DNA of 63,744 bases, counting the filler, from Folioceros fuciformis (lineage: Eukaryota), in the NCBI GenBank assembly GCA_049999805.1. It is 11 parts of 11 records of this genome, joined end to end, with 100 filler letters (N's around TTAATTAATTAA, not from the genome) between each part and the next. Parts side by side here need not be neighbours in the genome. Positions count along the whole stretch, not along the records: positions 28,556 to 41,111 come from JBNGIO010001440.1; 10 more parts are not named here. One strand, given 5' to 3'. Position numbers and translations under genes: made by a program. Shown one piece after another: positions 298 through 63,371 of the stretch. The notes below the pieces were generated by a model. That model was not told the origin of the DNA, searched no databases, and saw only the letters and a program-made list of their open reading frames with translations. Position 1 is the first letter of the stretch; every line of letters starts with the position of its first letter.

Positions 298-2741
298 TCA
301 ATGTGTTAGCAACCGTGCAACACTCAGACAACTAAGAGCCAAGGATGAGCCCACCACAACTCCAAAAATGCTGCTCTTCACATCCATTGCCAAGGCTCGT
401 CGCAGAAGATTCCCTCCAAAAGCAGAATACAAACCCCCACAAGCTAAGATCATCCAATGATCAAGACCATCGTGGTCCATCCCAGCGAAAACCGCAAAAA
501 CAGCTGCCACTGGACCCGTGCATCCAGTCAACGTTACAATAAGTAGAGCAAACTGCCAGCTCGTAGTGGCACTGTACACTACTATAGCCACCGTTGCACC
601 CCTGGGAAGACCATTGAATGAGGCTGAAAGTAGCAGGTCCATATCCAGACCAGATGTTCTGAGGCTAGCTATTCCAAATAGCAGTCCATCCACAAGGGCA
701 TGAAAGGCTACCGTTGTTGACACCAGAAGAGCTTGCGTGGCTAGAGGTGATATCTTACCCGAGCCAAAACGCAACACCTCCCTCTTTTCACTTCTGGATT
801 CTCCCCTGCAAGAAGCAATAGCTTCCAGAACCCAAAAAACTGCACATCCAGAGCAGAGCCAAGCTATAACCAGAGGGACGCCAGATTGGCCACGCAGCAA
901 TAATTCTGCTGGGCTCCATGCTGCCACAACAAAGGCAGCCCCTGATCCAAGTCCTGGAAGAACAATGGGCGACATTCTCACCCAGCTTAACAATAGTATG
1001 CTAAAAGCACCTCCGATAAAAGGTCCCAACACAAGAAGCAAAGACGCCACTACAGCCCATCCATGTTCCCTGCTGATGCAAATGCAAGAGATCAGACAAC
1101 ACGTTGATACAACATTGTGCGAACAGCAGGATAGGGCATACTGCGGTGCTGCATGGCATAGTCCTTACTTTGGCATCTGATCATAGCCGACAAGTAGCGC
1201 ACTCAAGATCTCCATTAGTGCAACAGACGCCGTTGCAGCAGATCCTACATGGGAAGCATTTGCTTCCTACACAGAAGTCCTGGTCATCAGCAGGCACCCA
1301 AGACAACCTTACACAACCAAATCAGGAACACCAAGAAGACGCTAAGTTAGAACAACCACCTTCAAGCTAGCAGGGATAACTTCAGCAAAGACCATCCAAA
1401 TCATGCAGCCAGCTGCAAAACCAAGGCAGAATGGCAAGAGCTTGTGGAAGGCCTCTGCACATAAGAATGCTGGAACAGCCACTAGCGGCTGCAGTAAACA
1501 ATTTAGACACACCAATTAGCCGAGCACACCAAACTCTCGTGTCCTCTACAACTACTAAGAGAAGAGCAGCAACGGGTGTGGGGGGTTGGTTTGGTTGCTG
1601 ATGATCATTCCTGGTTCGCACCAACGTTCTGCAGCAATTTCCTTCACGTTGCTGATATGTGAGGCCTCAGAAACCACTGCTGACGGTGTTTTCAGATAAT
1701 CCCTTATGAGAACGGGTGAAGCAACATGCAGAAGCACTGGTAACCATCTCTGACCATCTTTTACACGTGTAAAATAGCACGAGAACTGACCTGTGGTAGG
1801 GATGTGAATATGCTCCAGATCAATGCTTTGCGAGCAGAGAGTCCTCGTGATGCCAGAACCATGCTTACAGCCAAACCCTCCGGGATATTGTGCACTGCAA
1901 TCGCAAGAGTGACCATCAGGCCCTGCCGAAGGCCATTAGGTCCTGCGAAGGACACTCCAACACCGGAACCCTCGCCAAACGAGTGCAGAGTCATAATTCC
2001 AACAACCAATACAACTTTCCTTGCATCGACTGCTTTGAGGTCAACAATCCTCATATCCTCGTAACCCTCCAACACCTGCAGAAAAAAGCACAAAGAAGTT
2101 AACCCCTCGCCACCTGTATGTGCGTCTAGAGGTTGGAGGTGAAACGGAGGAGATACACGCTGTGTAGATAATCTTGCTTCACCGTAAACCGTGAAACAAA
2201 CCTTTTGGCAGCACAGAATGAAGAGTCCACCCAGTAGAATCCCGAGCACGACCCAGGTTCCACCACCATACTTCTGCCCTTCCTGTATGAGATCAAAACT
2301 GGCAGCAGTCATCACCCCCGACGCAATTCCATTGCAAATACCCGCCCAGTGCGTCCGTAGCTCCATAAAGAAGAGAGGAAGCGCGCCAAGACCCGTTGCA
2401 GCTGCCATAGCCAAAGTGAGTAATGCAACCGTGAGAACGGGTACTTTTCTTGTTGTCGGCTTTCCTGTCAATTCTGTAGATCCTGTTAGGCCGCTCGGGG
2501 CACGCGTGACTTCTCCCATAGCTAATCGAAGGCCCGGGTCAGCGAGTCCCAGGCGATACAAGTCATCTTGAGACGTTGAAATCTGCCCCTTTCTTAACTG
2601 TGCGCCTCTCAGAAGATAATTGGCATGCATAGACTGTACAGGAGCTACCATATCAACCAGCACAACGACAATGCCGAAAAACAGAAGAGACATCTGCAAG
2701 GTGCAGCTCGTTCGCGTCCCATGAGCCATGATGAAAGACAA
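298..2741 (-). CDS. ZIP-family metal (zinc) transporter, At3g08650-like; exons approx 2741-2202, 2075-1791, 1488-1360, 1266-1169, 1069-298
   Basis: Motifs TLHSFGEGSGVGVSF, IAVHNIPEGLAVS and PLVAVPAFLCAEAF; GT-AG introns join the ORF pieces in frame; duplicated ZIP-like second half. Confidence 0.9.
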
Positions 2742-3593
2742 GCATCAGGTCGAGGCCGTAAACGATCGCCGATAGGGGTACTTCCTTCAAGCAAGAACAT
2801 GAGGACAGCTTTGAGTGTGAGGTCTGGGTGACGTGGGGAAGAAGTAGCAACCTACGAATGTATGTAGACTAAATCCTAGTAGCATCTAACGGATGTTTTT
2901 TTCTACCCACAAATCTAGTTCTGGACAGGTTAAAATGAAGTGAATTTCAGAAGTGCCAGCAGACCGCCGCGTCCGATCGAATGCTCCATTCCCGCAAATT
3001 GTTCGGGGTGCGCAGCCTGCGGAATGCTTGGTTGCTTTGGGCCATTCCGTCGGCTCGCGTAGCCTGATCCCCCATGTCGGCGTTATGGTTCCTTTCAGGC
3101 CGCTAACGTCACCCCATGACTGGGTTGCCTTCGGGAGTGAAAGGTGAAACGACGCAGAAGGGGAGTTGCATGCGCAGCAACTTCAGCTTACACATTCCAA
3201 TTGCTGCCTTTTGCCCTGCGGGCTGGCTGCATTGTGCCGGGATGATGGGTCATTACGCCCGCGTTGATGGACCGTATCCAGTGTTCCTTCCATTCCCTCA
3301 TACGGGCTGTCTTAACAAGTTTTATGATATCTCGTACATCCGCAGCTTTACAAGTGTGGCGCGTGCCTCTGGTCGGATGTCTGCCTGAGATAGAAGAGGA
3401 CCGCAGCACTTATTGAAAGTTTGTCGTAGCTGACATCATCAAGGAGAATACGAGTGTTAAGTCTGCATGAGCAGGATTTGTCACGTATGCATCATTTTGT
3501 CATGAAGCTGTGTGGAGTAGGTGGAGCCAGGTGAAAATCCTTCTCGCGGACGGGTGTCTGGTGTGGGGACCGACACCATAAAGCAAAGAGAAG

Positions 3594-28555: not shown

Positions 28556-29899
28556 GGGCAGCTGAAGGCCGTGACCGGGGTCGGGCTGGTGTCGGATGTG
28601 TTTGACGAGGAGAAGCTGGAGAGTTTGCGAGGATCTACTGCCATTGGGCATGTGAGGTATGCCACGGCAGGGGGATCCTTGCCGGAGAACGTGCAGCCGT
28701 TCTTGCGTGTGTGCAGGTTTGGTGCGGTAGCTGTGGCGCACAATGGGAACCTCGTGAATGGGAAGGAATTGCGGGACAGGTTGGAGGAAGCCGGCTCGAT
28801 TTTCAAGAGCTCGTCCGACACCGAGGTGGTGCTGCATCTCATGGCCAAGTCCTCGCAGCAGCATTTCCTGGCACGGGTGGTGGAATCATGCGAGCAGCTG
28901 GAAGGCGCGTATTGCATGTTGTTCTTGACGGAGGACCAGCTGGTTGCGGTGCGAGATCCTTACGGCTTCCGGCCTTTGGTGATGGGAAGAGACGAGAGTG
29001 GAGCTGTGTATTTTGCGTCAGAGACATGCGCGCTGGACATGATCGGAGCTACGTACGAGAGGGAGGTGGATCCGGGAGAAGTGGTGGTGGTGGACAAGGA
29101 TGGAGTTAGCTCGTCTTACCTCACAGCGAAGCGGGAGCGGAAGTCTTGCGTTTTCGAGCTCATTTACTTCTCGTCATCGGTGTCCAGGGTGTTCGGCAGA
29201 TCCGTCTACCAGGCTAGACTAGGGTTTGGACGGATTTTGGCAGAGGAGAGTCCAGTGGAGTGTGATGTGGTGATTGCGGTTCCCGACTCAGGTGTGGCTG
29301 CAGCCATCGGGTACGCCAGCAAGGCGGGAGTCCCCTTCCAGCAGGGGCTGACGCGTTCGCATTACGTGGGCAGGACTTTCATCGAGCCAACCCCGCGGCT
29401 CAGAGACCTGGCAGTGAGGATGAAGCTCTCTCCGGTGAAGGAGGTCTTGGCAGGGAAGAGAGTGGTTGTGGTGGACGACTCCGTTGTGAGAGGCACAACT
29501 TCAAGTAAGATTGTGAGGATGATCAGAGAGGCTGGGGCATCTGAGGTGCACATGAGGATTGCAAGTCCGCCAGTTATCGCATCGTGCTATTATGGGGTGG
29601 ATACCCCGAATCGTGAAGAGCTCATCTCTTACAGGCTCAATATCGAGGACACCAGGAAACAAATAGGGGCGGACAGCTTGGCCTTCTTGCCCCTGCACAG
29701 GCTGAAGGATCACCTTGGCGATGAACATTCTTCTTTCTGCTTTGCCTGCTTTTCTGGCGACTACCCTGTGCTCACAACAGCTATGGTTGAGAGGGAAGCT
29801 CGTTACAAGTCTGCCACGGTGGTTGGGGAACATGATCATGAGTCTCATGTTCCCCTAAGACTGCCGGCTTATCGGATCTTGGCAGCTTCGACCTCTTAA
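28556..29899 (+). CDS. purF: Amidophosphoribosyltransferase (glutamine PRPP amidotransferase), 5' truncated
   Basis: IGHVRYATAG, AHNGNLVN, SDTEV, RDPYGFRPL, VPDSG, VVVDDSVVRGTT, CYYGVDTP, C-terminal CFACFSGDYP. Confidence 0.96.
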   Translation, partial: GQLKAVTGVGLVSDVFDEEKLESLRGSTAIGHVRYATAGGSLPENVQPFLRVCRFGAVAVAHNGNLVNGKELRDRLEEAGSIFKSSSDTEVVLHLMAKSSQQHFLARVVESCEQLEGAYCMLFLTEDQLVAVRDPYGFRPLVMGRDESGAVYFASETCALDMIGATYEREVDPGEVVVVDKDGVSSSYLTAKRERKSCVFELIYFSSSVSRVFGRSVYQARLGFGRILAEESPVECDVVIAVPDSGVAAAIGYASKAGVPFQQGLTRSHYVGRTFIEPTPRLRDLAVRMKLSPVKEVLAGKRVVVVDDSVVRGTTSSKIVRMIREAGASEVHMRIASPPVIASCYYGVDTPNREELISYRLNIEDTRKQIGADSLAFLPLHRLKDHLGDEHSSFCFACFSGDYPVLTTAMVEREARYKSATVVGEHDHESHVPLRLPAYRILAASTS

Positions 29900-29976: not shown

Positions 29977-30719
29977 CTGGAGAAACCGTTTCTGCTGATC
30001 CTGTCTCACGGTTGTACTTTTCTCGAATCTATAGGCCGACAGAACGGATGTGCCCGGAACTGGCATACCACGGCGGACCAAGGGGCTGGCATTTAATTGT
30101 TTTATCATATTCTCATTTTTTCATGAAGTATCTTGGGATATCTGTATTCGACTTATGAGGGGGTTGAGTTGAGGCGGTCCGTTCCTAGACCACCTTTGCT
30201 TTTGTTTCCGTTCCCGTTCGGGGAGTGGAGCACACACACAAATCCGCTTGGCAGGCAAAACCAAATATCATAAACACGAACACAAGCTCATTGAAGTAGC
30301 ACTCCTAGGGGCAAAACCAAAAACACGAACACAAGCTCATAGGGATAGACTCTCCCTCCCCAGGGATACCAGTATATTCTACCTCGATTCTCGGATTCAT
30401 GGTCCTTGGTCCTCCAAACAAAGAGGTCATTCCATTCCAGCAAACAGGACACATAAAGCAATACAACATAGGAACTTCAGGATTTCTGTCAAAGATTGAG
30501 GTCTGGCTTTAGGCTTGCCAGCAATTTAGAGTTGAGTTCGGATTCGGACCTGACACGTCCAATGACGAAGCTAATTTCGTAGCCCTTTCCTTGATTTCGT
30601 CCTGCTGGTGCATCGTGAAGAAAGGCCTATGGTTTGGACTTCAAAGCTGTTCGATGCGAACTTGTCAACTCCCTGGTCGGTGAAGGCTTCGATGTGCGCA
30701 ATGGAACTTGTTTGCCTCA

Positions 30720-33240
30720 TCAAATTTTTTGGTTCTTAGTCACTTCAGTTGGGAACTTGGTTTCCACTTTCTTGTCAGGGATGCTCCCAATCCGTGGTTC
30801 TGGGCAGCACCACTCTCCGATTTGCCTTCGGAAGATGATCGCCAGGATCACGAGTACTAATACAGATACGCCGGCCCCCACAGCCCCTGCTACATAGTGA
30901 CCTGTCCTCTTGCGTGCCAGAGGCGGGGCTGGGATCCCTCCACATGAAGAGCAGCACGCCACGTCTGTGAATCCATTCTGCCGATCTGTCTGGAGACAAA
31001 TTCCGGTGGAGGACCCACTGCCACAGGTGCTGGATGGGTCGGGTGCCTGCAGACAGGAGCTGTCAGGGAGTGTGTGTGGGCACAAGGGTGCATGCTCAGT
31101 TCTCCTTTGAGAAGTGCGCTTACAGGAAGTGCGCATGACAGACTAGCGCCTGAAGCAGCAGGGTTTGTAACCACTACCCCACCGCTCCTGCTCTGCAAGC
31201 CAGTATCGATCGAGCCTTGAAGCAGAAGACTGAGGGATGACTTTTGGACCTCGATGCCTGCGACTCCAATCAACTCCAGGCCATCGCTTGTCATAACTGC
31301 AGTGAAGCTGGATGAGACCTTCCATCACCGTGGATCAAGAAGGAAGGGCCTGGCGTGGAAATGCAAGTACCTGGGTACGTGACTTCGATGACCGGACCCA
31401 GTCCGTCGTAGTCGGTGTATTTCCCTTGCCAGTAGGGCTTAGGAAAAGCTGCTATGTGGGCTCGAGCAAAGAAAGAAAACAGAGATCGGATTCCAAACAG
31501 AGGATTTTGCAGGTTGGCTACTACCTCGTAAGAACCTCCTACGGCGCACGCAATCTTTGTGAGATTGGCCATGGCTGAAGGGCTTGCTACTCCAACGCTG
31601 TACATGAGGACTTTCACCTGTTGCTTCACAATCTCTTGGACGACGGGATGTAGCTCCTCCACATTGACATGGTTCCCAAAGTTTCCATCCGTCAAAACCA
31701 CCACCACCTGTCGTAGATGGTGTCGGAGTGAGACTTCTCCCGGAAAAGAGAGTATCGACAAACGAAGTCCAACCTTCTGGTTAGTGCAGAAACTGTCGTC
31801 GGGGAATCATTGCCTTGATTGCATCTGGTGGGGCTGGTGCAAGCAGAGCTAGCGCTGAAGATAATCCAGCAGTGTAATTGGCTGCTGCTTGGTTGCTGGA
31901 CACCTCTAGTCCGTCCACGGCCTGGATCAGACTGAGCAGTTCTGCGCTGCTCTGATCCAATCCTGTGGGTGGAACAGAGAACTGGAGGCACAGGCGCAGG
32001 AAAAATTATGCGGGAAGTTTATCACAGTGATCCTAGCTATAACACTGCTTCAGTAACCATGAAATGTGAGAGCTTGCCTTGACACCCAACTGGACCGCTG
32101 TGTTATTGCCGTCGAAGGTGATCACGGAAGCTTCATCTGCTGATATCAGTGTGTTCAACAGATTCATAGCAGTGGTTTGGCAGATCTGCAGATATGACGA
32201 CGCCGTAGTGACTGCTCCCTGTATCCCTTGCATGGAGTAACTGGAGTCCATTAGGATGACAAGACTCTTCTTTACACCAATACCTCCATTGTACCTGCTC
32301 AACGTAAAGGCAAAGCCATGTTACAGGTGATTCAGGCTTGGTGCAACTCCCTACTCCTTTGGAAACATTTATAGACTGCTTCCTTACCAGGGCCGTTGTC
32401 TCACATCATAAATGTTGCAATTTGGCACAGCCTAGGTATCAAACCAGCCCAATTGCACGATGAGATCTTAGCGACCTGAAGAGGGCAAGAGTGAAAGGGC
32501 TTGGCAGAGGGTTGTCATGTGCCATCTCACCCTGCCAGGATAGAAGCGATGGGCACCTTCCACGGTTCCCAGGGCATAGTTGAAAAACTCCGTACCCTTT
32601 CTGCTAGAGTCCACGGACTTGAAGACACTGTCATCCAGCACACGCTGAGAGCAGATGGCATTCTTAACTTCCGGAGGAAGTCCTCCTATGTTGCTAATAG
32701 GTGCCCTGTCCTTGAAGGATTAGCATGGGTGGGCTGGTGAACGAAAGATTCCAAGACACGCAACCTCGGATCTCACCTCACATAACTCCTCTCGTAGGTC
32801 ACCAACCCATAGTTGCAAACAACGCCATTCCCATCTTTGCAACTTGTGTTGTTCATGATGGAAGCACACACCAGATTGCGAAGGTCCCCCTGCACATAAT
32901 CGCAAGCTCCTCTGGAGCAATTTTGCGGGGAATCACATGCTGCCACAAGCTCTGCAGTCTCCACAGCCCACACAGAACCCCCCCCAGTCAGCAAGTGAAC
33001 TCCTGCTCAGAGTTGCTGCTAGTACGTGACGCATGCCGAATCTCGCTTACCGCAGGTATTTTCATGATTTGTTCTAGCCTGTGCGGCTATTAGCTGCACC
33101 TCCTGCTCCTTCTCATTTAAAAATGCGTCGATGCCAGAAGAACTGGCCGAAGGGCTAGGGACTTGTCCACCAGCGCGCAGGCAACCACAACACGTGAGCA
33201 CCAGGTATACCCATATCAAGCTTGCTGACCGTGTAGCCAT
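30720..33240 (-). CDS. alpha2delta/CACHD1-like type-I membrane protein (signal peptide, Cys-rich N-terminus, split dCache with inserted VWA, TM helix); about 9 exons
   Basis: GTVEGAHRFYPG, YDVRQRP|WY, KSLVILMDSSYSM (MIDAS), VVVLTDG, YWQGKYTDYDGLGPVIEVTYP, LIGVAGIEV, TM YVAGAVGAGVSVLVLVILAIIF. Confidence 0.85.
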
Positions 33241-34205
33241 AGCCCAGTTCTCAGAAGATGAGTCCGAATTGTCTCCAACAAGCGCACACGGTTGAAGTTC
33301 TCACTCCTCCAATCTCACCAACAGCACAGTGTCCAATTAGACGAGATCAAGTCAATCCGTTCTTTCATGTGGAGTGCTGGACACGTCAACTGACATGCTT
33401 ATTTCACTGGTAGGAGACGTGAAAAAGAAGATAGCAAGAGCAATCCACCCAAGAAACAGGAAATAACCTTGATGAGGGACGCCCTCCGTTCTTCCCTATA
33501 TTGTAGCTGACTAGAGAAGGATTAATTGGAGAGTAATTACGAAAGCTTCGCCAATGGTCAACTCTCCGCAGTGTTGCCTTGAACATTGTGGATTTGTGTT
33601 CACGGAATAGAGACCGTGCAGTGTTGAGGCCAGCCTCTCCTTTCTTCTGGTTCATGGGGTCCTACCCCAGACCGTACAATAAACCGTGTGAGCTCCTGCC
33701 GGAGAAGCAAGTATCTGCGGCTGCACCCACCAAGGTATGCGCATTCTTGCTCCTGCTGAAAGTGGACGACACGATATCCGGGTTTGCGGATTTAGAGCTG
33801 AGCACCTTGTCGATTGGATTGAATGTTGATCTGCCACTTTCTTGCGTTCATCCTTTTTTGAGTGCTGTGGTAGGAAAGAATTTGATGGGGCTTCAACGTC
33901 CACCAAGGCTATCTGCGAGAGAGATTCGTGCCAGTCGTGCAACAGAAGATGGAGAAATGTTGACGACGTGATCGTTATTGCTCAGGAAGAATCACTTCAG
34001 CCAAACCGGGACATGGGTCCCGACCAATCGACGCCTGCAGGAGCTAGTGTGGCCGGGACAGGGAGCTTAACGGGGGTCGCCATGATGCCCCTGAACCAAA
34101 GAGGGAATCCAGTTTGGGCTGGGCTTGGGAAACGAGATTGAAAAATCTGAAAGTGTCTACTCAAGATACGCTGGGATGAGGAGGCGGGGCGAGGAAAACC
34201 CCGAC

Positions 34206-36098
34206 TCAGAGCTGGAAAGCAGATGCTCTACCCTCAGGACCCTGCATCGTGTGTGGGAGCGAAGGAAGAGCGTTCTCGCCGTGGCAAATGGCAATACCTA
34301 GATAGATGACTTCGATGGCGGGTCCCAGACCGTCGTAGTCGGCGTATTTCCCTTGTCCCTTTGCGACATCGGCTCGAGCATGGAAGGCAAGGAGAGATCG
34401 CACTCCTATGAGAGGATTTTGCGGGTTGCCTACCCTCCCACGGTGCACGCAATCTGTGTGAGATAGGCCATGACTGATGAGCTTGATATTCCAACACTGT
34501 ACATGAGGTCTTTCACCTGTTGCTTCCCAAGTTCTTCGAGGACGGGATTCTGCTCTTTCACATTGACCTGGTCCTCGGGATTTCCATCCGTCAACACTTA
34601 TCATCACCTGTTGCACAAGATTCAGCAGTCAGAATTCTACCACTAAGGAGGGTACCGGTATCCTGACCTTTGTCAAGCGTAAAAGCCGTCTGGTGTAGGA
34701 TCATAGCCTTGATCGCATCTTGTGGTGCTGCGTCAAGACGAGAGAGAGCAGTAACAAGCCCAGCATTATAATTGGTCGCTCCTTGGGTGCTGGAGACGTG
34801 TAGACTTTCCACGGACTGGATCAGGTCGAGCAGTTGCGTGCTGTCCAGATCTTGACCTGTGGGTAGAACAGTGAGGTGGATCCACCGAGGTGGTAAGAAT
34901 CTTTCGCACAGCCTATGGTGTAAACACAGAGGGCTGAGTAAACGTGCAATGTGAGAGCTGGCCTTTGCACCCAACTTTATCGCGGTGTTACTGCCGTCGA
35001 AGATAAGCACTGAATCTTCATCTGTTGCTATAAGTGTGCTCAACAGCTTGACAGCAGTGGTCTGGGAGACCCGCAGAAATGACGACGCAGTAGTGACTGC
35101 TCCCTGTATCCCTCCCATGGAATACATTGAGTCCGTTAGAATTACAAGACTCTTCGTCACACCAATGCCTGCATTGTACCTGTCCAACGTAGTGGCATAC
35201 CCACGTTGAAGGTGGCACTAACTCAGGCGCGACCCACTGCCCTTAGAAGCATATCCAGACTCATTGCTTACCAGGGCCGTTGTCTCACATCGTAATTGTC
35301 GCAACCTGCCACAGCCAGAGAAGAAAACCATCCCAGGATGAGGTGCTGCAAGAGGCCAACTGTGAAAGGGTTTTACGAGGCCTTCTGCGGTAAGTAATAC
35401 CGCCAGGATAGAAGCGAAGGAGACCTTCTACGCTGCCCAGGCCGTAGCTGAAAACTCAGTACCTGTTCAGCGAGGCTCTAGAAACTTGAAGACATTGTCA
35501 TCCAGCACATGCTGAGAGCAGGTGGCATGCTTGACTTCGGGAGGAACTCCACCTAAGTTTTGAATGGGTAGTACCCTATACATATTTGCTCAGCATGGAT
35601 GCTCTGGTGAACCTTTGACCCTGGGGTACGTAACCTCGGATCTCACCTCACATAACTCCTGTCGTATGAAACCAACCCATACTTGCACACAGCGCCATTC
35701 CCATCTTGGCAACCTGTGTGGTTCATGATAGTCGCATACGCCACATTTCCTCGGTCCCCCAACACTTATTGGCAAGCTCCCCTGGAACGATTTTGCAGGG
35801 AACCGCATGTTGTCACCAGCTCTGCATTCTCCACAGTCCACACAAAACTCCCCAGTCAGCAAGAAAACTCTTTCACACGGTGCAGCTAAGTACCATGTCT
35901 CAATCTCGCTTACCGCAGGTCTTTCCATGGTTTTCTCCAGCCTGTTGCGCTATCATCTGCACCTGCTCATCCTTCTCATCCAAGAATGCGCCAATGGCAC
36001 GCAGACTGGCAGATGAGCTGGGAACTTGCCAACCAGCAAAAAAGCTCCAGCAATTTATGAGAACCAGGTAGTACACCAACATCCACCTTGCTGGCCAT
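34206..36098 (-). pseudogene. Tandem pseudogenised paralog of the alpha2delta-like gene
   Basis: Exon-by-exon similarity to 30720-33240; in-frame TAA in exon 2 (~35766-35768); frameshifts/deletions near 34300-34600; no TM exon. Confidence 0.85.
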
Positions 36099-36313
36099 TC
36101 AATATTTATATGCACAAAAGCACAAAAGCTCACAAGGTTCTTATCCCACGTTTTGGTTGACCAACTGCTTGAACGCATTCACATCCCTGCAAAGCTTTTC
36201 ATACTGCGATAATCAGGCAACTAGGAAAGCTTGATTGAGAGTATTGTATTCCATTCAACATCTCTACCAAGAAAAGTTTGCCCCATGCGTCGGACTTTGT
36301 GCCCATTCAGCAT

Positions 36314-38251
36314 CTACTGAACAAGACTAGAAGCTAAAGGTCCCGGAAGAACATTGAAACTCATGGTATAGATTGCAGAGTCGACAGATTGAATACCGTT
36401 TTCGGATTTAGGACAAGATCGGAAGTTGGGATAGCTCTTGTAGATGATGGAATCGCTCTTCAATCCGTAGTCCAGCGCAGAGCTGTTGTTGAAACTTGCC
36501 TTCGTTAAGTCAAAAATGGTGATGTAGTCTATCGTGTTCAACAAAGGCACCGTTGTCAAGGAATTGCAGCTCAAAAAAGTGGGTGTATTTCTCCGCTTTC
36601 GTGGTGAGATTATGGTTAATTGAACTGCATTATTGGTTGGAAGTCCAGAGCAATTGCCGGTTATGCTAGCATTAGGAGCAATACCGTCATCGGGATTGCA
36701 AGGGATATCCCCCACTTCGGTTTCTTCACATATGCTGTCCAACCAGGGATAAGTCTGCATAGATCAACCACATATTATGATATAGGGTTAGATAATGCAT
36801 GCATTTATCATGTCATCTTACATGCTTTGGAAATAGAGCTGCTGACCATTTTGCCTGCATCCTTGCTTAATGTTTGAAGGCAAAGCAAAGGGGTAGAAAG
36901 CATTGGAGGAGGTACCTTTTGAAATATTGGGGTAGAGTAATTGGATTGACGAACTTGTTCCCAGGTGCGAGCGGGCTCTTGCAAGCAGTTGTTGGAGAAG
37001 TAGTTTTGGCAGCTGATCCAGCCAGGGAGATTGGCTTGAATGACGATCACGCTGGAGATGTTATTCTTGTGCCCAGTGTTGAGCTTCACTCCAGACGTAA
37101 GGTTGAAGCAGACACCTCCATCGATGGTGATTCCTGAAGAGGCCCAATCCAAGTAAAAGCATTGTACCAGGGCTCCAGTGGCATAGTTGCAAGAGAGGTA
37201 GTTTCCCGGGTTGAGCCAGTGTGTGCTGAAGTAGATAGCAGACGAGTCGTCCTCCACAGGGTGCTCATAATCTGCGTGGATGAAGTTGTTGATAAGGCTG
37301 TTGAGCATGCAGTCCCCGGCGTTCATGCTTCTCCTCTCTCCACACTCGATGCCAGTGAAATACTGCAGGAGGCAGGCAAGGGGGACGGAAGTCACAATCC
37401 GTAGAGGAGATACACAACGAACCCAATTAATGTACAGGGTCCAGGGACGGAGGATTGCCTGGTTGACAAGCTCGTTGTTGGCAACGGTTACCCCGACTGT
37501 GAATCGGTTGAGAAGCACACCTGTCTCGCCCCCTTCGATTCTTGAGTTGGAGAGGGTGATCAAGGATTTAACCAGGTTTGGGCCGTCTCCCACGTACGCA
37601 AATCTGACCGCAGCTCTGTCATCCGAGACAGTGGTGATCTGAAGGGAGTCGAACAATGCTTGGGTGGCTTGAAAGACATCCAATCTGCCAAACACTGCCA
37701 GCAGTTTACGACTTCACATCTCAGTATCTAGCAGGAAAGCTGGACAACGGACACTGAAAAATCAGCGATTGTACAAGGACTATCCAAGGCGCCACAGGAG
37801 AGACGTGTGTACCTGAAGCCTGGACTATCTGGATCCCCCAGGAGCTGTGGACAAGGATAGCCGGGCAATACGTGATGGAGGAGAGGTACGTGGACAGGGG
37901 CAAGGCCAGCGGACAAGGCTTTGGAGAGCTCTGGGCCAAGTTGATGCTGATGCTGACATCGTGGATCCATATGTTGGAGGTGCGAGAGATGGTGAGAGCA
38001 GGAAATCCATCAGACCGTGTTGTCAAAGAGAACCGAGACCCCTGCTCGGACGTGATGATAGTGCAGGCGAAGGAGGGCCCGGAGATGTTGAGAGGCGCGC
38101 TCAGGACGATGTCGTTCTGAAGCACGAAACGCACAGTTTGCTTGCTGGGATGACTCTGACGGCCATCGAAATCGGAGGAGGAGAAGCATGGAATGGTAAC
38201 TTCAATTTCGGAGCACGGTCCCCCTGCATCACCGACCCAGACAAGCAATAG
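36314..38251 (-). CDS. Right-handed parallel beta-helix (pectin-lyase-like fold) protein, spliced; N-terminus interrupted by an in-frame TGA
   Basis: PbH1-like repeats DDSSAIYF..NPGNYLSCN, CFYLDWASSGITIDGGVC, GVKLNTGHKNNISS; ORFs 37721-38248, 36808-37695 and 36314-36760 linkable by short introns. Confidence 0.6.
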
Positions 38252-54477: not shown

Positions 54478-54778
54478 ATGAGACCACGGATGCTGGCAAC
54501 AAGGAAAACGTCCGGACCCGTAAGCGCTTCCGCACGCCACATGTACAGTCAGACCGCTTTTGACAATCATGCATGGACCGTGTCCAGCACTACCCGCGTC
54601 ATGGTCTCTCACTCTCTCAAATGAGTAGTCTGACTGTACTGCGGAGGTAGCAGTGCCCATGAGTTCTCTCCTACCATGGCCATTCTCGTCTCCCGGTGCA
54701 ACAATCCTGGAACGCTCATCTTCCCGATGGCCTGTCAACTCGCCTCAGATGCGTGCTTGATGCTTGGTGCTGAGCTTG

Positions 54779-57262
54779 ATGTTTCATGTGGCAACGCAGA
54801 TGGGTGTGGACTCCATTGCCGCTGGTCCCGGGCTGTTAGCCCACAAGGGAGGCATCCCAGTCTCTCTAGGGGATTGTCCGGCTGCGCGACAAGAAAAGGG
54901 CTTCGATTCGTGGCAGAAGGTGGAGCTGCAGATGAGGGATCAGGCTGCTGCCCTGACCACATCCCACTGGAGCGTGCCGGATTCTCCCGCCAAGTCTGCA
55001 GCGTGGTCAGTGGGCATGACGGCCGAAACTGTGAGCAGGTTATGTCACCAGGGTCTGGAGATGGAGTCTGTCGTTGAGGCTCTGGGACTTTTGGTAGAGA
55101 AGGACTGTCCAACCTCCCAGTCTCTGTTTTATACGGTGCTCAAGAAGTGTGTGGCTCACAGGGATTTGGTTCTTGGCCGTAGGGTACACGCTCTGGCTGT
55201 GAAAGTGGGTTGTGAGTCGGACACTTTCTTGTGCAACCACATCATGAGGCTGTATACTGGCCATGGCAGGTTGCAAGACGCTATGGATGTGTTCCACATG
55301 GTTGCCACACCTGATGCCTTCTCCTGGTCTGCCATCATTTCTGCTCATGTTAAGGAGGGGCAAGATAAGCAGGCCATACAACTGTACCATCGGATGCGCA
55401 GGTCAGGTGTGAAGCCGGATGGCCATGTGTTTGTGGCAGCGCTTCAGGCTTGTGCCAGGGGACGAGACTTGGATACTGGGCAGCAGGTCCATGCTGATGT
55501 GTTGGCCAGTGGGTTGGAGACTAGTTTGTTTGTCTCCAGCTGCTTGGTGGACATGTATGCAAAGTGCGGCAGCTTGGAAGACGCCCAGAGAGTGTTTCAT
55601 GCCCTTCCTCGGAAGGACGTGGTGACTTGGAATGCTATGATAGCAGGATACTCCCAGCAGGGCAAGGGGAAGGAATCCCTTCGTCTCCACGAGGCTATGC
55701 AAGAAGAAGGCATTGTTGCACTTGATGCCGTCACAATTACGTGCCTTTTGCAGGCATGTGCAAGCGTGGGCACTGCAGCTCTGGAGAAGGGGAGGCAGCT
55801 TCATGCACGAATCAGAGAACAAGGACGTCCTTTGGCTGATGTGTTTGTAGCCAGCAGCTTGGTCAACATGTATGCCAAGTGCGGCAGCTTGGAGGAAGCC
55901 CGGGATGTGTTTGATGAACTCCGTCAGAAAAATGTGGTGACATGGAGTGCAATGATAGCAGGATATTCGCAGCATGGCATGGGGCTCGAAGCCCTTCGTC
56001 TCTACAAAGCCATGCAAGAAGACGGCATGATTGTACCCAATGCTGTCACATTTGTGTGCCTCCTACAGTCTTGTGCAACAGTGGGCACCCCAGCTTTGGA
56101 GACGGGCAAGGAGATTCACGCACAAATCACGGAACAAGGACTGCAAGCTGACGTGTTTCCAGGGGGCGCTCTGGTAAACATGTATGCAAAGTGCGGCAGC
56201 ATCCAGGATGCTCGGGCGGTGTTCGATGGACTTCCTCACAAAGATGTGGTGACGTGGACTGCTCTGATAGCAGGCTATTCCCAGCAGGGCATGAGTCTGG
56301 AAGCCTTGAATCTCTACAAGGCTATGGGTGGAGAGGGCATGGTTCCACCTGATGCTGTGACATTTGGATGCCTCCTGCAGGCCTGTGCGAGTGTGGCAGC
56401 CTTGCATCTGGGCAGGCAGCTTCATGCGCAGATCAAAGACGCAGGCCTTCAACTCGATGGCGCTATTGGCAACAGTTTGGTAAACATGTATGCAAAGTCA
56501 GGGAGCATGGCTGAAGCACAACATGTGTTTGATGCCATGCCTGAAAGAGATGTCGTCACCTGGAGTGCTCTGATCGCTGGCTACACACGTCAAGGAGCCA
56601 GTGAAGTAGTCTTTGACTTGTATCACCGAATGATACAAGCTGGCATTCAGCCGGCTGCCATCACGCTGCTCAGCGTACTAACAGTCTGCAGCCATGCGGG
56701 TCTAGTGCACAAGGGGCAAGAGTACTTCGAGTCCATGACCGGACAATACGGTATCACCCCAACTGTGGAGCACTACGCATGCATGGTGGATCTCCTAGGT
56801 CGAGCAGGCAGACTAGATGAATCACTAGCTCTGGTATGTGCCATGCCTGTACAGCCTAATGCTGCAGTTTGGCACGCTCTGTTGGGTGCCTGTCAAAAGT
56901 GGAACAACGTGGAGTTGGGATGCCGTGCTTTTGATGAAGCAATTAAGCTAGACAAGAAAGATGCTGCAGCATATGTGTTGATGTCCAATATATACACCGG
57001 TGCCCAGATGTGGAAGCAGGCACAGGAGATGCAGGTAAGGAGAACGGGGATCCAAGCATGGAAGCAACCAGGCCAGAGCTGGTGGACAGACACGGATGGC
57101 GTGGTGCATAGTTTTTTGGTCAGAGATCAGAAGCACCCCGAGAGTGGCGACATATACATCAAGTTGCAACAGCTTCTTTCCTCAATGAACAAAGCAGGAT
57201 CCTATGTTCCGCATCTGGACCCGTTCGAGGAGTTCCCTGAGGATTGGGGTTGCAGAAGCTAG
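54779..57262 (+). CDS. PLS-class PPR protein with E1/E2 and a truncated WW-type DYW start (E+); putative organellar RNA-editing factor
   Basis: Intronless; repeated LVNMYAKCGS..A..VFD / DVVTW.AMIAGY triplets; EHYACMVDLLGRAG; AAYVLMSNIY; KQPGQSWWTD; stop before HSE. Confidence 0.95.
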   Translation: MFHVATQMGVDSIAAGPGLLAHKGGIPVSLGDCPAARQEKGFDSWQKVELQMRDQAAALTTSHWSVPDSPAKSAAWSVGMTAETVSRLCHQGLEMESVVEALGLLVEKDCPTSQSLFYTVLKKCVAHRDLVLGRRVHALAVKVGCESDTFLCNHIMRLYTGHGRLQDAMDVFHMVATPDAFSWSAIISAHVKEGQDKQAIQLYHRMRRSGVKPDGHVFVAALQACARGRDLDTGQQVHADVLASGLETSLFVSSCLVDMYAKCGSLEDAQRVFHALPRKDVVTWNAMIAGYSQQGKGKESLRLHEAMQEEGIVALDAVTITCLLQACASVGTAALEKGRQLHARIREQGRPLADVFVASSLVNMYAKCGSLEEARDVFDELRQKNVVTWSAMIAGYSQHGMGLEALRLYKAMQEDGMIVPNAVTFVCLLQSCATVGTPALETGKEIHAQITEQGLQADVFPGGALVNMYAKCGSIQDARAVFDGLPHKDVVTWTALIAGYSQQGMSLEALNLYKAMGGEGMVPPDAVTFGCLLQACASVAALHLGRQLHAQIKDAGLQLDGAIGNSLVNMYAKSGSMAEAQHVFDAMPERDVVTWSALIAGYTRQGASEVVFDLYHRMIQAGIQPAAITLLSVLTVCSHAGLVHKGQEYFESMTGQYGITPTVEHYACMVDLLGRAGRLDESLALVCAMPVQPNAAVWHALLGACQKWNNVELGCRAFDEAIKLDKKDAAAYVLMSNIYTGAQMWKQAQEMQVRRTGIQAWKQPGQSWWTDTDGVVHSFLVRDQKHPESGDIYIKLQQLLSSMNKAGSYVPHLDPFEEFPEDWGCRS

Positions 57263-62403: not shown

Positions 62404-63371
62404 TCCTGTCACACGTAAAGGATATGTTGAGAAAAACATTTGAAATGACAAACAGTGGTGATCTAATTTTCTGCCTAGGGATACAAGTGCTTCGAGTTCG
62501 ATCAGAGGGGCTTCTCATTATCCATCAACACAAATATGTTGCTGAGATCTTACACAAATTCAACATGGGACAAGCTCATCCTTCTTCTACTCCAGGCTCT
62601 GTAGGAGCTAAACTTACTCGATCTGAGTGTCCTGTCACAGATGCTGACCGCTTGGACATGCAGGATGTCCCCTATCGACAGGCTATTGGCTGTTTACTTT
62701 TCGTCAGCAACTGGACGCGCCCTGATATCCAACATTCCGTTGGTACAGTGTCCCAATTCTTAGATAACCCTGGTCGTGCTCATTGGACTGCTGTAAAACG
62801 TATTTTTCGTTACCTCAAAGACTCGCCCTACATTGGACTCTGCTATAGACGAGGAGCACACCAGACCCCTCAGCTCACTCTTGAAGGGCTTACTGACGCT
62901 GATTGGGCCTCGGATAGTGACTCCCGTAAGAGTTTGTCCACCTATACTTTCCTCCTCGCCCAAGCTTCTATCAACTGGAGCTGCAAAAAGCAGACCAATA
63001 TAGCCCTGTCAAGCACTGAAGCCGAATACAAATCCCTTACTGATGCTACTAAGGAAGTGGAATGGGAGCGGTCTTTTTCACATGACCTTGGGCAAATGCA
63101 GGATGGCCCTACTCACCTCTACTGTGACAATCAATCAGCCATCGCCCTTGTTGCCAATCCCCGCTTCCACGCTCGGACGAAACATATTGAAGTCCATCAT
63201 CACTATATTAGAGATGCTGCTGCGAGGGGGTTAGTTAAAATTCTCTACATGCCTACTGAGAATAACACAGTAGACATCCTAACAAAGGCCCTACCAAAGG
63301 ATAAACATCAGAAGCATATGCAGGCACTTGGGCTAATAAACTTTCAATCCTATTTCAAACCCGCAGCTTAA
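62404..63371 (+). mobile_element. Ty1/Copia pol C-terminus (RT end + RNase H)
   Basis: PYRQAIGCL....TRPDI, TDADWA, SSTEAEY, LYCDNQSAI, HARTKHIEVHHHYIR, DILTKAL. Confidence 0.95.

What the first reader, a model, noticed from the sequence alone, without database searches (positions are those of the whole stretch)
30720..33240. alpha2delta/CACHD1-like membrane protein with a near-intact amino-acid-binding dCache pocket in a non-flowering plant
Seen: splicing gives a signal peptide, then GTVEGAHRFYPG, YDVRQRPWY (split by intron 32387-32295), a VWA domain with DSSYS and LTDG, then KYTDYDGLGPVIEVTYP, GVAGIEV, a Cys-rich stalk, one TM helix and a short tail. Known: this is the layout of animal Cav alpha2delta subunits, whose Leu/gabapentin pocket is the dCache_1AA motif YxxxxRxW...YxD...D (alpha2delta-1 YDVRRRPWY). 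Land plants lack canonical Cav alpha1 channels. Here Y, R, W, Y and D are kept and the last Asp is Glu. Inference: a channel-independent extracellular amino-acid or ligand sensor, possibly with shifted specificity, of a kind not typical of angiosperms.
Basis: partly seen in the sequence, partly recalled or inferred. Interest (0 to 1): 0.85.

Follow-up and report, generated by a model that had tools for sequence, protein, structure and literature searches.

The report
Plant Cache-VWA receptor-like membrane protein
An expressed gene of a non-flowering land plant encodes a half-size relative of the animal calcium-channel subunit alpha2delta; this protein family is already reported from such plants, and this copy has a Glu where the amino-acid pocket normally has its key Asp.

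Summary
A 9-exon minus-strand gene (CDS 33240-30720, 601 aa) is real. All 8 introns, including 32295-32387 inside YDVRQRPW|Y, appear as exon-exon joints in transcript contigs of coded run X1. The protein has a signal peptide, a long helix, a Cys-rich insert, one Cache module split by a VWA domain, a Cys-rich stalk, one TM helix and a 35-aa tail.

A profile of its relatives plus four window exons hits alpha2delta-1 at E=1.6e-35. An AlphaFold model of a Selaginella relative matches alpha2delta-1 (Z 29) and CACHD1 (Z 24.8).

It is not an alpha2delta or CACHD1 orthologue. It has no second dCache domain and belongs to a land-plant Cache-VWA family found in liverworts, mosses, lycophytes, Psilotum, Ginkgo and Cryptomeria. 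Some members carry a kinase.

Gumerov et al. 2022 already reported such proteins in non-angiosperm Archaeplastida. The amino-acid motif is Y188, R193, W195, Y420 plus E451 in place of Asp. Asp is kept in 13 of 14 full-length relatives, and the two closest fragments have Val. Ligand binding is therefore plausible but unproven.

Verdict: a new member of a known kind, of moderate interest.

The parts
30396..33461 (-). Transcribed span of the gene as covered by X1 contigs (5'UTR to about 33461, 3'UTR to about 30396)
   Evidence: table 8: record 2 covers 33051-33461; record 1 covers 30396-31045, 31123-31296 and 31371-31706
33051..33240 (-). Exon 1: ATG at 33240, signal peptide (MATRSASLIWVYLVLTCCGCLRAGG), start of the long N-terminal helix
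   Evidence: the first in-frame ATG after a stop
32777..32951 (-). Exon 2: Cys-rich insert (Cys 69, 75, 80, 92, 101, 109), cysteines aligned with relatives
32531..32705 (-). Exon 3: first part of the Cache module, including GTVEGAHRFYPG
32388..32431 (-). Exon 4: N-part of the amino-acid motif. Y188 (32410-32408), R193 (32395-32393), first two bases of W195
32078..32294 (-). Exon 5: completes W195, then Y196 (32293-32291); start of the VWA domain with MIDAS D211-S-S213-Y-S215 (32248-32234); ends at a GC donor
   Evidence: (VWA_2 18 bits, below threshold for the piece)
31814..31981 (-). Exon 6: middle of the VWA domain with MIDAS Thr304 (ANYTAGL); ends at a GC donor
   Evidence: (CT..GC joint)
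31371..31707 (-). Exon 7: end of the VWA domain (VLTDG, D330), then return to the Cache module. Y420 (31419-31417), D422 (31413-31411), VIEVTYP strand
   Evidence: (VWA 17.4 bits for the piece)
31124..31296 (-). Exon 8: last Cache strand LIGVAGIEV with E451 (31252-31250) at the Asp position of the motif; linker
   Evidence: (record 1 lies here with 0 other letters)
30720..31046 (-). Exon 9: Cys-rich stalk (C501, C510, CC524-525, C528), TM helix residues 544-566 (about 30896-30828), 35-aa tail with CC573-574, stop TGA 30722-30720
34261..36096 (-). Tandem pseudogene copy (B) of the same gene. 72% nucleotide identity over 1914 bp, in-frame stops in the exon-2 and exon-3 equivalents, a frameshift in the exon-7 equivalent, no exon-8 or exon-9 equivalents
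   Evidence: weak and mostly unspliced transcript cover

Best explanation
The gene encodes a kinase-less member of the land-plant Cache-VWA receptor family. This family is homologous to the first Cache plus VWA core of animal alpha2delta and CACHD1.

Shown: it is transcribed and spliced as modelled. It is a type I membrane protein by sequence. Its ectodomain holds one Cache (PAS-like) module with a VWA domain inserted between the two halves of the amino-acid motif. By sequence, the VWA carries a complete MIDAS (D211-x-S213-x-S215, T304, D330).

Inferred mechanism: it works at the cell surface as a sensor or adaptor. A small ligand with a carboxylate would sit in the Cache pocket. The carboxylate end would be held by Y188, R193 and W195. 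The other end would face Y420 and E451. The Glu-for-Asp change and His174 (at the position of alpha2delta-1 Ala217) should alter which ligands fit. The MIDAS would bind an acidic residue of a partner protein. The 35-aa tail has no signalling domain, so any signal must pass through a partner. The most likely partner is a receptor kinase, possibly a Cache-VWA kinase paralogue of the kind seen in liverworts and mosses. It is not a Cav channel.
For: - Splicing and expression: 8 of 8 introns are seen as joints, and the contig depths are 94 and 36.
- Family membership: 38 relatives at E<=1e-3 among 1.84 billion representatives with exon 7 alone. The spliced protein aligns end to end with relatives; the best hit is 35.8% identity over 519 aa, E 7e-93.
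- Homology to alpha2delta-1: profile E 1.6e-35. The 13 best PDB sequences are all alpha2delta-1, followed by the bacterial amino-acid receptors PctB and PctA at about 1e-5.
- Fold: an AF2 model of relative P0024 (pLDDT 73.5, pTM 0.75) matches alpha2delta-1 with Foldseek E 6e-20. VIA gives Z 29.0 over 415 residues, CACHD1 Z 24.8 over 390 residues, and VWA-only hits Z about 20 over about 180 residues.
- Motif columns: R 15/15, W 15/15 and Y420-equivalent 15/15 in relatives, and the window protein keeps all of them.
- The complete MIDAS is read from the sequence.
- Kinase-bearing relatives: P0013, P0046, P0047 and P0055. The window protein groups with the liverwort kinase forms at 90/93 support.
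- No kinase in the window (best tblastn E 1.8). The stop codon lies inside the transcript contig.
- Embryophytes lack four-domain Cav channels (PMC5824947, passages).
Against: - No binding or localisation data exist for any plant member. Searches found no such paper.
- The key Asp is Glu here. Asp is kept in 13 of 14 full-length relatives and in 19 of 22 relatives with a residue at that column, none of them Glu. The two closest relatives (47% identity) have Val, which suggests relaxed or changed constraint in this sub-lineage.
- D173A and D173N abolish binding in PctA. D-to-E was not reported in the text I read.
- The structure model is of a relative only 29% identical, not of this protein.
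- No partner has been identified, and the organism's genome could not be searched.
- Signal peptide, topology and MIDAS function are read from sequence only.
Confidence: 0.5

Rival explanations
1. It is a MIDAS-centred partner-binding or adhesion protein. The VWA domain is the working part and binds a wall, matrix or membrane protein through the metal site. The Cache pocket in this copy no longer senses amino acids and serves only as scaffold.
For: - In the alignment, only the window protein shows all five MIDAS residues; 0 of 15 relatives do, though the Thr column is not securely aligned.
- The pocket Asp is replaced here and is Val in the two closest relatives.
- D173N is a loss-of-function change in PctA.
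- In alpha2delta the MIDAS, not the pocket, makes the main contact with the partner (PMC9901441, passage).
Against: - Y188, R193, W195, Y196, Y420 and D422 are all retained, which argues that the pocket is still under constraint.
- Glu keeps the carboxylate that Asn and Ala lack.
Confidence: 0.3
2. It is an auxiliary or trafficking subunit of a plant cation channel other than Cav (for example a GLR, CNGC or other channel). It would act as alpha2delta does for Cav, with the Cache pocket tuning trafficking.
For: - Homology to alpha2delta-1 and CACHD1.
- A complete MIDAS as in alpha2delta-1 and -2, where it is needed for channel enhancement (PMC9901441, passage).
Against: - Embryophytes lack four-domain channels.
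- The second dCache_1 and the delta part are absent.
- Close relatives are receptor kinases, which points to receptor signalling rather than channel support.
- CACHD1 itself also acts with FZD5/LRP6 (entry titles only).
- No channel gene lies in the window.
Confidence: 0.1
3. It is a young duplicate on its way to decay and has no function of its own.
For: - A tandem copy next to it is already a pseudogene.
- The otherwise conserved Asp is changed.
- At least two further expressed paralogues exist (contigs at 90-95% likeness over 31397-31450).
Against: - The 601-codon frame is intact across 9 exons.
- All 8 introns are spliced, and contig depth is higher than over the pseudogene.
- The ectodomain cysteines align with relatives.
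- The MIDAS and 6 of 7 pocket positions are kept.
Confidence: 0.05

Closest known systems
Land-plant Cache-VWA proteins without a kinase. Examples: Selaginella moellendorffii LOC9633548 (P0024) and relatives, one of which NCBI names 'voltage-dependent calcium channel subunit alpha-2/delta-4 isoform X2' (P0041); Sphagnum (P0048); Marchantia (P0015, P0050); Psilotum (P0054)
   Same: Same overall layout and length (541-765 aa): signal peptide, helix, Cys-rich insert, Cache split by VWA, Cys-rich stalk, TM helix, short tail. They align collinearly. The exon-7 boundary recurs as ORF ends '...YPG' in many fragments.
   Different: Only 27-33% identical. They carry Asp (Thr in Sphagnum) where the window protein has Glu. 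In the alignment most lack a full MIDAS.
Cache-VWA receptor kinases of bryophytes: Riccia fluitans R1flu_023753 (P0013), R. sorocarpa (P0046), Marchantia paleacea Mapa_014331 (P0047), Physcomitrium patens XP_024368103/4 (P0055, P0056; named 'THESEUS 1' by NCBI)
   Same: These are the closest full-length ectodomains (34-36% identity, E to 7e-93). They group with the window protein at 90/93 support. This is the Streptophyta kinase form mentioned by Gumerov et al. 2022.
   Different: They carry a cytoplasmic Ser/Thr kinase (Pkinase E 1.3e-46 in P0013). The window gene ends 35 aa after the TM helix, and no kinase lies in the window.
Animal alpha2delta-1 (CACNA2D1; PDB 6jp5, 7vfs, 8fd7 and others)
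   Same: Homologous over alpha2delta-1 residues 160-503 (VWA_N, VWA and post-VWA Cache), E 1.6e-35. The VWA insertion point is the same. Rabbit-numbered Y238, R243, W245, Y246, Y452, D454 and D493 align with Y188, R193, W195, Y196, Y420, D422 and E451. The MIDAS is complete.
   Different: The window protein has no second dCache_1 (VGCC_alpha2) and no delta or GPI part, and is about half the length. It has Glu for D493. It has no Cav partner in land plants. The alpha2delta clade is metazoan only.
CACHD1 (PDB 9eq6, 8s7c)
   Same: Type I membrane protein with a Cache-VWA core. Fold match Z 24.8 over 390 residues.
   Different: CACHD1 has two dCache_1 domains and keeps the amino-acid motif in the second one. 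The window protein has only the first-type module.
Bacterial dCache_1AA chemoreceptors (PctA, PctB, PctC; PDB 5t65, 5lt9, 5ltv)
   Same: Same N-part motif YxxxxRxWY (profile hits at 1.4e-5 to 8e-5), and the same logic of carboxylate- and amine-binding halves.
   Different: The bacterial proteins have no VWA insertion, have two PAS-like modules, and carry cytoplasmic signalling domains. Their Asp173 is essential, whereas the window protein has Glu.

Membership tests
Eukaryotic Cache-VWA proteins (single Cache domain with VWA insertion; Gumerov et al. 2022) | VWA domain inserted inside the Cache ligand-binding module, between YxxxxRxWY and Y...D | tested here: met
   Order in the spliced protein: Y188..Y196, MIDAS 211-330, Y420, E451. 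The same register appears in the profile alignment to alpha2delta-1.
Eukaryotic Cache-VWA proteins (single Cache domain with VWA insertion; Gumerov et al. 2022) | Detectable homology and fold of the Cache+VWA core | tested here: met
   Family profile including 4 window exons against alpha2delta-1, E 1.6e-35. Model of relative P0024 against alpha2delta-1, Z 29.0 over 415 aa. The window protein itself could only be tested through alignment to relatives (E 7e-93).
dCache_1AA (amino-acid motif of Gumerov et al. 2022) | N-part: Y121, R126, W128 (YxxxxRxW) | tested here: met
   IYDVRQRPWY gives Y188, R193, W195.
dCache_1AA (amino-acid motif of Gumerov et al. 2022) | C-part: Y144 followed 27-34 residues later by D173 | tested here: not met
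   Y420 is present, but the residue 30 positions on is E451, not Asp. Asp is kept in 13 of 14 full-length relatives. Whether Glu is among the tolerated variants of their Dataset S1 could not be seen, because supplements are closed.
dCache_1 (double Cache, Pfam PF02743) | Two PAS-like modules (membrane-distal and membrane-proximal) | tested here: inconclusive
   The AF2 model of relative P0024 shows one module, then a disordered stalk after residue 470. The window protein has only about 40 residues between the last Cache strand and the Cys-rich stalk. Pfam dCache_1 is below threshold in P0013 (21.7 against 45 bits) but is listed as precomputed for P0047.
alpha2delta subunits of Cav channels | Second dCache_1 (VGCC_alpha2) and delta segment; about 1100 aa | tested here: not met
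   601 aa. The match to alpha2delta-1 covers only residues 160-503. No VGCC_alpha2 hit in the exons or the relatives.
alpha2delta subunits of Cav channels | Partner Cav alpha1 channel present in the organism | not testable with these tools
   No genome is held for this window. The literature states that embryophytes lack four-domain channels (PMC5824947, passages).
VWA domain with MIDAS | DxSxS ... T ... D metal-site residues | tested here: met
   D211, S213, S215, T304 and D330 are read from the sequence and the alignment. Pfam VWA and VWA_2 are below threshold on single exons (18 and 17.4 bits) and above threshold in relative P0024 (45.4 bits). Metal binding was not tested.
Plant receptor-like kinases (Cache-VWA RLK form) | Cytoplasmic protein kinase domain | tested here: not met
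   The stop codon lies 35 aa after the TM helix, inside transcript contig record 1. tblastn with the P0013 kinase against the window gives a best E of 1.8.

The most novel reading that the evidence does not exclude
Non-seed and gymnosperm plants may keep an ancient cell-surface system for sensing extracellular amino acids or related amine-carboxylates. It would be built on the same Cache pocket as the gabapentin site of alpha2delta. It would run through Cache-VWA receptor kinases together with kinase-less receptor-like proteins such as this one, and it was lost in flowering plants. In this copy the Glu-for-Asp change (with His174) would retune the pocket to a different ligand, making it a naturally re-specified member.
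Probability: 0.2. Interest if true: 0.6.

Novelty: new member of a known kind. Interest (0 to 1): 0.3.

Why it matters
The calls confirm that the drug-binding module of the human alpha2delta subunit has an expressed, spliced relative in a land plant that has no Cav channels. That plant relative sits beside receptor-kinase forms of the same ectodomain.

No plant member has a known ligand or phenotype in the papers I could search. The family is therefore a testable candidate for extracellular amino-acid or metabolite sensing in bryophytes, lycophytes, ferns and gymnosperms.

The existence of the class in non-angiosperm plants is already published (Gumerov et al. 2022), so this gene adds a divergent member rather than a new kind. 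It is at most 36% identical to any protein found here, has a unique Glu at the key Asp, and has a full MIDAS.

Tried and rejected
- my first hand-placed exons gave a broken frame. I replaced them with the model.
- Alternative junction (GT donor at 32085 with acceptor at 31962) instead of the GC donor at 32077: rejected, because the contig joint is 31981|32078 with CT..GC ends.
- Pfam on 8 single exons gave only sub-threshold VWA_2 and VWA hits and no VWA_N or dCache hit. The pieces are too short.
- word-based homologue search with exon 7, lengths 'longer', found none among 84 candidates.
- phmmer of exon 7 and exon 5 alone against the PDB gave no alpha2delta hit. Only the family profile did.
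- no RNA holder is listed on record. X1 is 'RNA?' by guess. X2 and X3 laid nothing.
- no genome is held for this window. The search for Cav-like, GLR or kinase paralogues in the organism could not be run.
- no Rfam family in the window.
- no earlier notes on this genome or sequence; only three notes on Asgard archaeal Cache-VWA proteins.
- literature searches for plant Cache-VWA function found nothing relevant., 'dCache_1' with 'land plants', returned 0 papers.
- residue names were not found in PMC9901441 under those spellings.
- no kinase-like sequence in the window.
- The whole spliced protein could not be passed to the Pfam, PDB, structure-prediction or atlas tools, because joined sequences are not to be typed. 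Domain and fold evidence for the full protein is therefore indirect, through single exons, relatives and in-box alignments.
- The coordinates of the model were not available to me, so I did not check the pocket geometry of the relative.
Full report
**Observation.** The finding's coordinates are exactly the coding span of a minus-strand gene. From the raw sequence I built a 9-exon model: 33240-33051, 32951-32777, 32705-32531, 32431-32388, 32294-32078, 31981-31814, 31707-31371, 31296-31124 and 31046-30720. It has 1806 nt and 601 codons. Two donors are GC rather than GT (AAG|GCAAGC at 32077 and AAG|GCAATG at 31813), so the model needed outside support.

One public run, coded X1, holds 65% of the sampled words of 30600-33400. 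When its contigs were laid on 30200-36500, 8 of the 10 joints listed were exactly the 8 introns of the model. The skips were 77, 74, 106, 96, 93, 99, 71 and 99 bases. All had CT..AC ends on the plus strand, or CT..GC for the two GC-AG introns. The run is labelled only 'RNA? (a guess)' and is not on record as RNA, but exon-exon joints argue for cDNA. The contigs extend to about 33461 (5'UTR) and about 30396 (3'UTR), and the stop codon lies inside a contig. The contig over exon 8 has no differing letters, so the Glu codon at 31252-31250 is the same in that run.

**What the protein looks like.** The order is as follows:
- signal-peptide-like N-terminus
- a helix-forming stretch
- a Cys-rich insert
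- GTVEGAHRFYPG
- IYDVRQRPWY (Y188, R193, W195, Y196)
- a VWA domain with D211-S-S213-Y-S215, T304 and D330
- PYWQGKYTDYDGLGPVIEVTYP (Y420, D422)
- LIGVAGIEV (E451)
- a linker and a Cys-rich stalk
- one hydrophobic helix (residues 544-566)
- a 35-aa tail with a CC pair

It also has 22 cysteines and 6 N-glycosylation sequons. Single exons give only sub-threshold Pfam VWA hits. I could not pass the spliced protein to the family, PDB or folding tools, because joined sequences are not to be typed. The evidence below therefore comes from single exons, from relatives and from in-box alignments.

**Relatives.** The word-based search with exon 7 found nothing. The exhaustive HMMER search of 1.84 billion representatives found 38 proteins at E<=1e-3, of which 7 were at E<=1e-10. 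Many are ORF fragments ending '...YPG', which is the exon-7 boundary, so that boundary is widely shared.

Full-length relatives have the same layout. Some end shortly after the TM helix (P0024, P0015, P0048, P0054). Others continue into a Ser/Thr kinase (P0013: Pkinase E 1.3e-46). Names given by sources place the family in:
- Selaginella moellendorffii
- Riccia fluitans and R. sorocarpa
- Marchantia paleacea and M. polymorpha
- Sphagnum
- Physcomitrium patens
- Psilotum nudum
- Ginkgo biloba
- Cryptomeria japonica

None of the named hits is a flowering plant. NCBI already names one Selaginella member 'voltage-dependent calcium channel subunit alpha-2/delta-4 isoform X2'.

The spliced window protein aligns end to end with these relatives. 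The best hit is P0046, with 35.8% identity over 519 aa and E 7e-93. It is at most 36% identical to any full-length protein found. The closest fragments (P0001, P0051, unnamed) are about 47% identical. In a maximum-likelihood tree of 15 ectodomains it groups with the liverwort kinase forms (ultrafast bootstrap 90, SH-aLRT 93, not a starred branch). No kinase-like sequence is in the window (best tblastn E 1.8).

**Relation to alpha2delta and CACHD1.** A profile of six relatives plus four window exons (A2) was searched against all PDB sequences. It gives alpha2delta-1 as the 13 best distinct sequences (E 1.6e-35 to 8.9e-35), covering alpha2delta-1 residues 160-503. Next come an inter-alpha-trypsin-inhibitor VWA (1.2e-5) and the bacterial amino-acid chemoreceptors PctB and PctA (1.4e-5 to 8.7e-5).

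In the printed alignment, YDVRRRPWY, VYLDA and GVMGVDV of alpha2delta-1 fall on the family columns. These correspond, through, to Y188, R193, W195, Y196, Y420, D422 and E451 of the window protein. Counting along the rabbit chain, the alpha2delta-1 residues are Y238, R243, W245, Y246, Y452, D454 and D493.

An AlphaFold model of the Selaginella relative P0024 was built with a 33-row alignment (mean pLDDT 73.5, pTM 0.75, confident over about 100-465). It shows a long N-terminal helix, one PAS-like module interrupted by the VWA, a disordered stalk and a TM helix. Foldseek ranks alpha2delta-1 chains 1-11 (E 6.2e-20 to 4.9e-18) and CACHD1 at ranks 12 and 14. VIA-align gives alpha2delta-1 Z 29.0 (415 residues, rmsd 5.0) and CACHD1 Z 24.8 (390 residues). 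VWA-only matches reach Z about 20 over about 180 residues.

The homology claim is therefore sound. But the protein corresponds only to the first Cache+VWA part. There is no second dCache_1, no delta part, and apparently no membrane-proximal PAS module. The last point rests on the model of a relative 29% identical and on the short linker in the window protein.

**What is already known.** Gumerov et al. 2022 (PMC8915833) define the amino-acid motif as Y121, R126 and W128 plus Y144 and D173 in PctA numbering. I read sections 5 and 12 in full and other passages; the supplements were not visible. The paper shows that the motif is split by the VWA in alpha2delta. It reports dCache_1AA proteins in Archaeplastida but in no angiosperm. 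It describes proteins with a single dCache_1 carrying the VWA in many non-vertebrate eukaryotes, and a kinase fusion in some Streptophyta. It states that the alpha2delta cluster is metazoan only.

D173A abolishes binding in PctA, and D173N, found in about 6% of motif holders, is a loss of function. Embryophytes lack four-domain voltage-gated channels (PMC5824947, passages). Three literature searches found no paper on the function of a plant member.

**The pocket in this copy.** Among 15 full-length relatives:
- Arg, Trp and the Y420-equivalent are invariant (15/15 each).
- The first Tyr is Y in 10 and F in 5.
- The Asp position is D in 13 of the 14 that have a residue, and T in Sphagnum.

Over all 35 relatives including fragments, the Asp position is D in 19 of the 22 with a residue and never E. 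The two closest relatives have Val there, and six other checked relatives have Asp. So the window protein keeps six of the seven pocket positions but changes the most critical one. Its nearest kin have lost that residue altogether. Glu keeps a carboxylate, unlike the inactive Asn and Ala variants, but it is one carbon longer.

There is one further inference. The position of alpha2delta-1 Ala217 is His174 here and mostly Phe, Leu, Met or Trp in the plant relatives (read from the blocks). A Phe at that position in alpha2delta-3 and -4 is said to exclude bulky ligands (PMC9901441, passages). A small or different ligand is therefore more likely than Leu or gabapentin.

In the alignment the window protein is the only one with all five MIDAS residues. 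The Thr column is not securely aligned.

**Most likely function.** This is a kinase-less receptor-like member of the plant Cache-VWA family at the cell surface. It would sense a small carboxylate-bearing ligand in the Cache pocket and/or bind a partner through the MIDAS, and it would signal through a partner kinase. Membership in the family is shown. Topology, metal site and pocket are read from sequence. Ligand, partner and output are inferred.

The rivals are a MIDAS-centred binding protein with a dead pocket, an auxiliary subunit of a non-Cav channel, and a decaying duplicate. The last is unlikely given the intact frame, complete splicing and retained residues.

**Setting.** The window is from a land plant. 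It holds an intronless PLS-type PPR gene with E and E+ motifs at 54761-57262. It also has short introns, a copia-type element and an amidophosphoribosyltransferase gene convergent with this gene. 'Non-flowering' fits the family's reported and observed distribution but was not shown directly. Directly upstream lies a tandem pseudogene copy.

**Verdict.** This is a new and divergent member of a known kind. Interest is moderate because the class and its absence from angiosperms are already in print, while the function of any plant member remains open.

Noticed in passing
window 34261-36096 (minus strand): Tandem pseudogene of the same gene. It has 72% nucleotide identity over 1914 bp, in-frame stops in the exon-2 and exon-3 equivalents, a frameshift in the exon-7 equivalent, and no equivalents of exons 8-9. 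It keeps YDVRQRPW and both GC donor sites, so the GC donors predate the duplication.
   Followed up: partly
window 31813-31812 and 32077-32076 (minus strand): Two of the gene's 8 introns use GC-AG splice sites (AAG|GCAATG and AAG|GCAAGC). Both are confirmed by contig joints with CT..GC ends.
   Followed up: yes
window 33468-35208: Low-depth X1 contigs cover the spacer and the pseudogene without splicing (record 5, 33984-35208). One joint with GT..AG ends on the plus strand skips about 33733-33983. This suggests a plus-strand, antisense or intergenic spliced transcript.
   Followed up: no
window 31397-31450: Two further X1 contigs (depth about 88-90) match this stretch at 90-95% likeness. Their loose ends continue as a spliced '...VIEVTYPV' junction. 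At least two close paralogues are therefore expressed elsewhere in the genome.
   Followed up: no
window 54761-57262 (plus strand): An intronless 833-aa PLS-class pentatricopeptide-repeat protein with E motif (1.8e-11) and E+ motif (3e-4). This is the organelle RNA-editing factor type typical of land plants.
   Followed up: partly
window 28556-29899 (plus strand): An amidophosphoribosyltransferase (purF-like: GATase_7 2.6e-23, Pribosyltran 1.5e-8) convergent with the Cache-VWA gene. Its start is hidden by a masked N run.
   Followed up: partly
window 1761-2744 (minus), 62406-63371 (plus), and 20 N runs: A ZIP metal transporter ORF (1.8e-12) and a copia-type reverse transcriptase remnant (RVT_2, below threshold), both. 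There are also ten pairs of 44-base N runs spread through the window.
   Followed up: no
P0055/P0056 (Physcomitrium patens) and P0041 (Selaginella): The database names of relatives look misleading. The moss Cache-VWA kinase is named 'receptor-like protein kinase THESEUS 1', and a Selaginella kinase-less member is named 'calcium channel subunit alpha-2/delta-4'.
   Followed up: no
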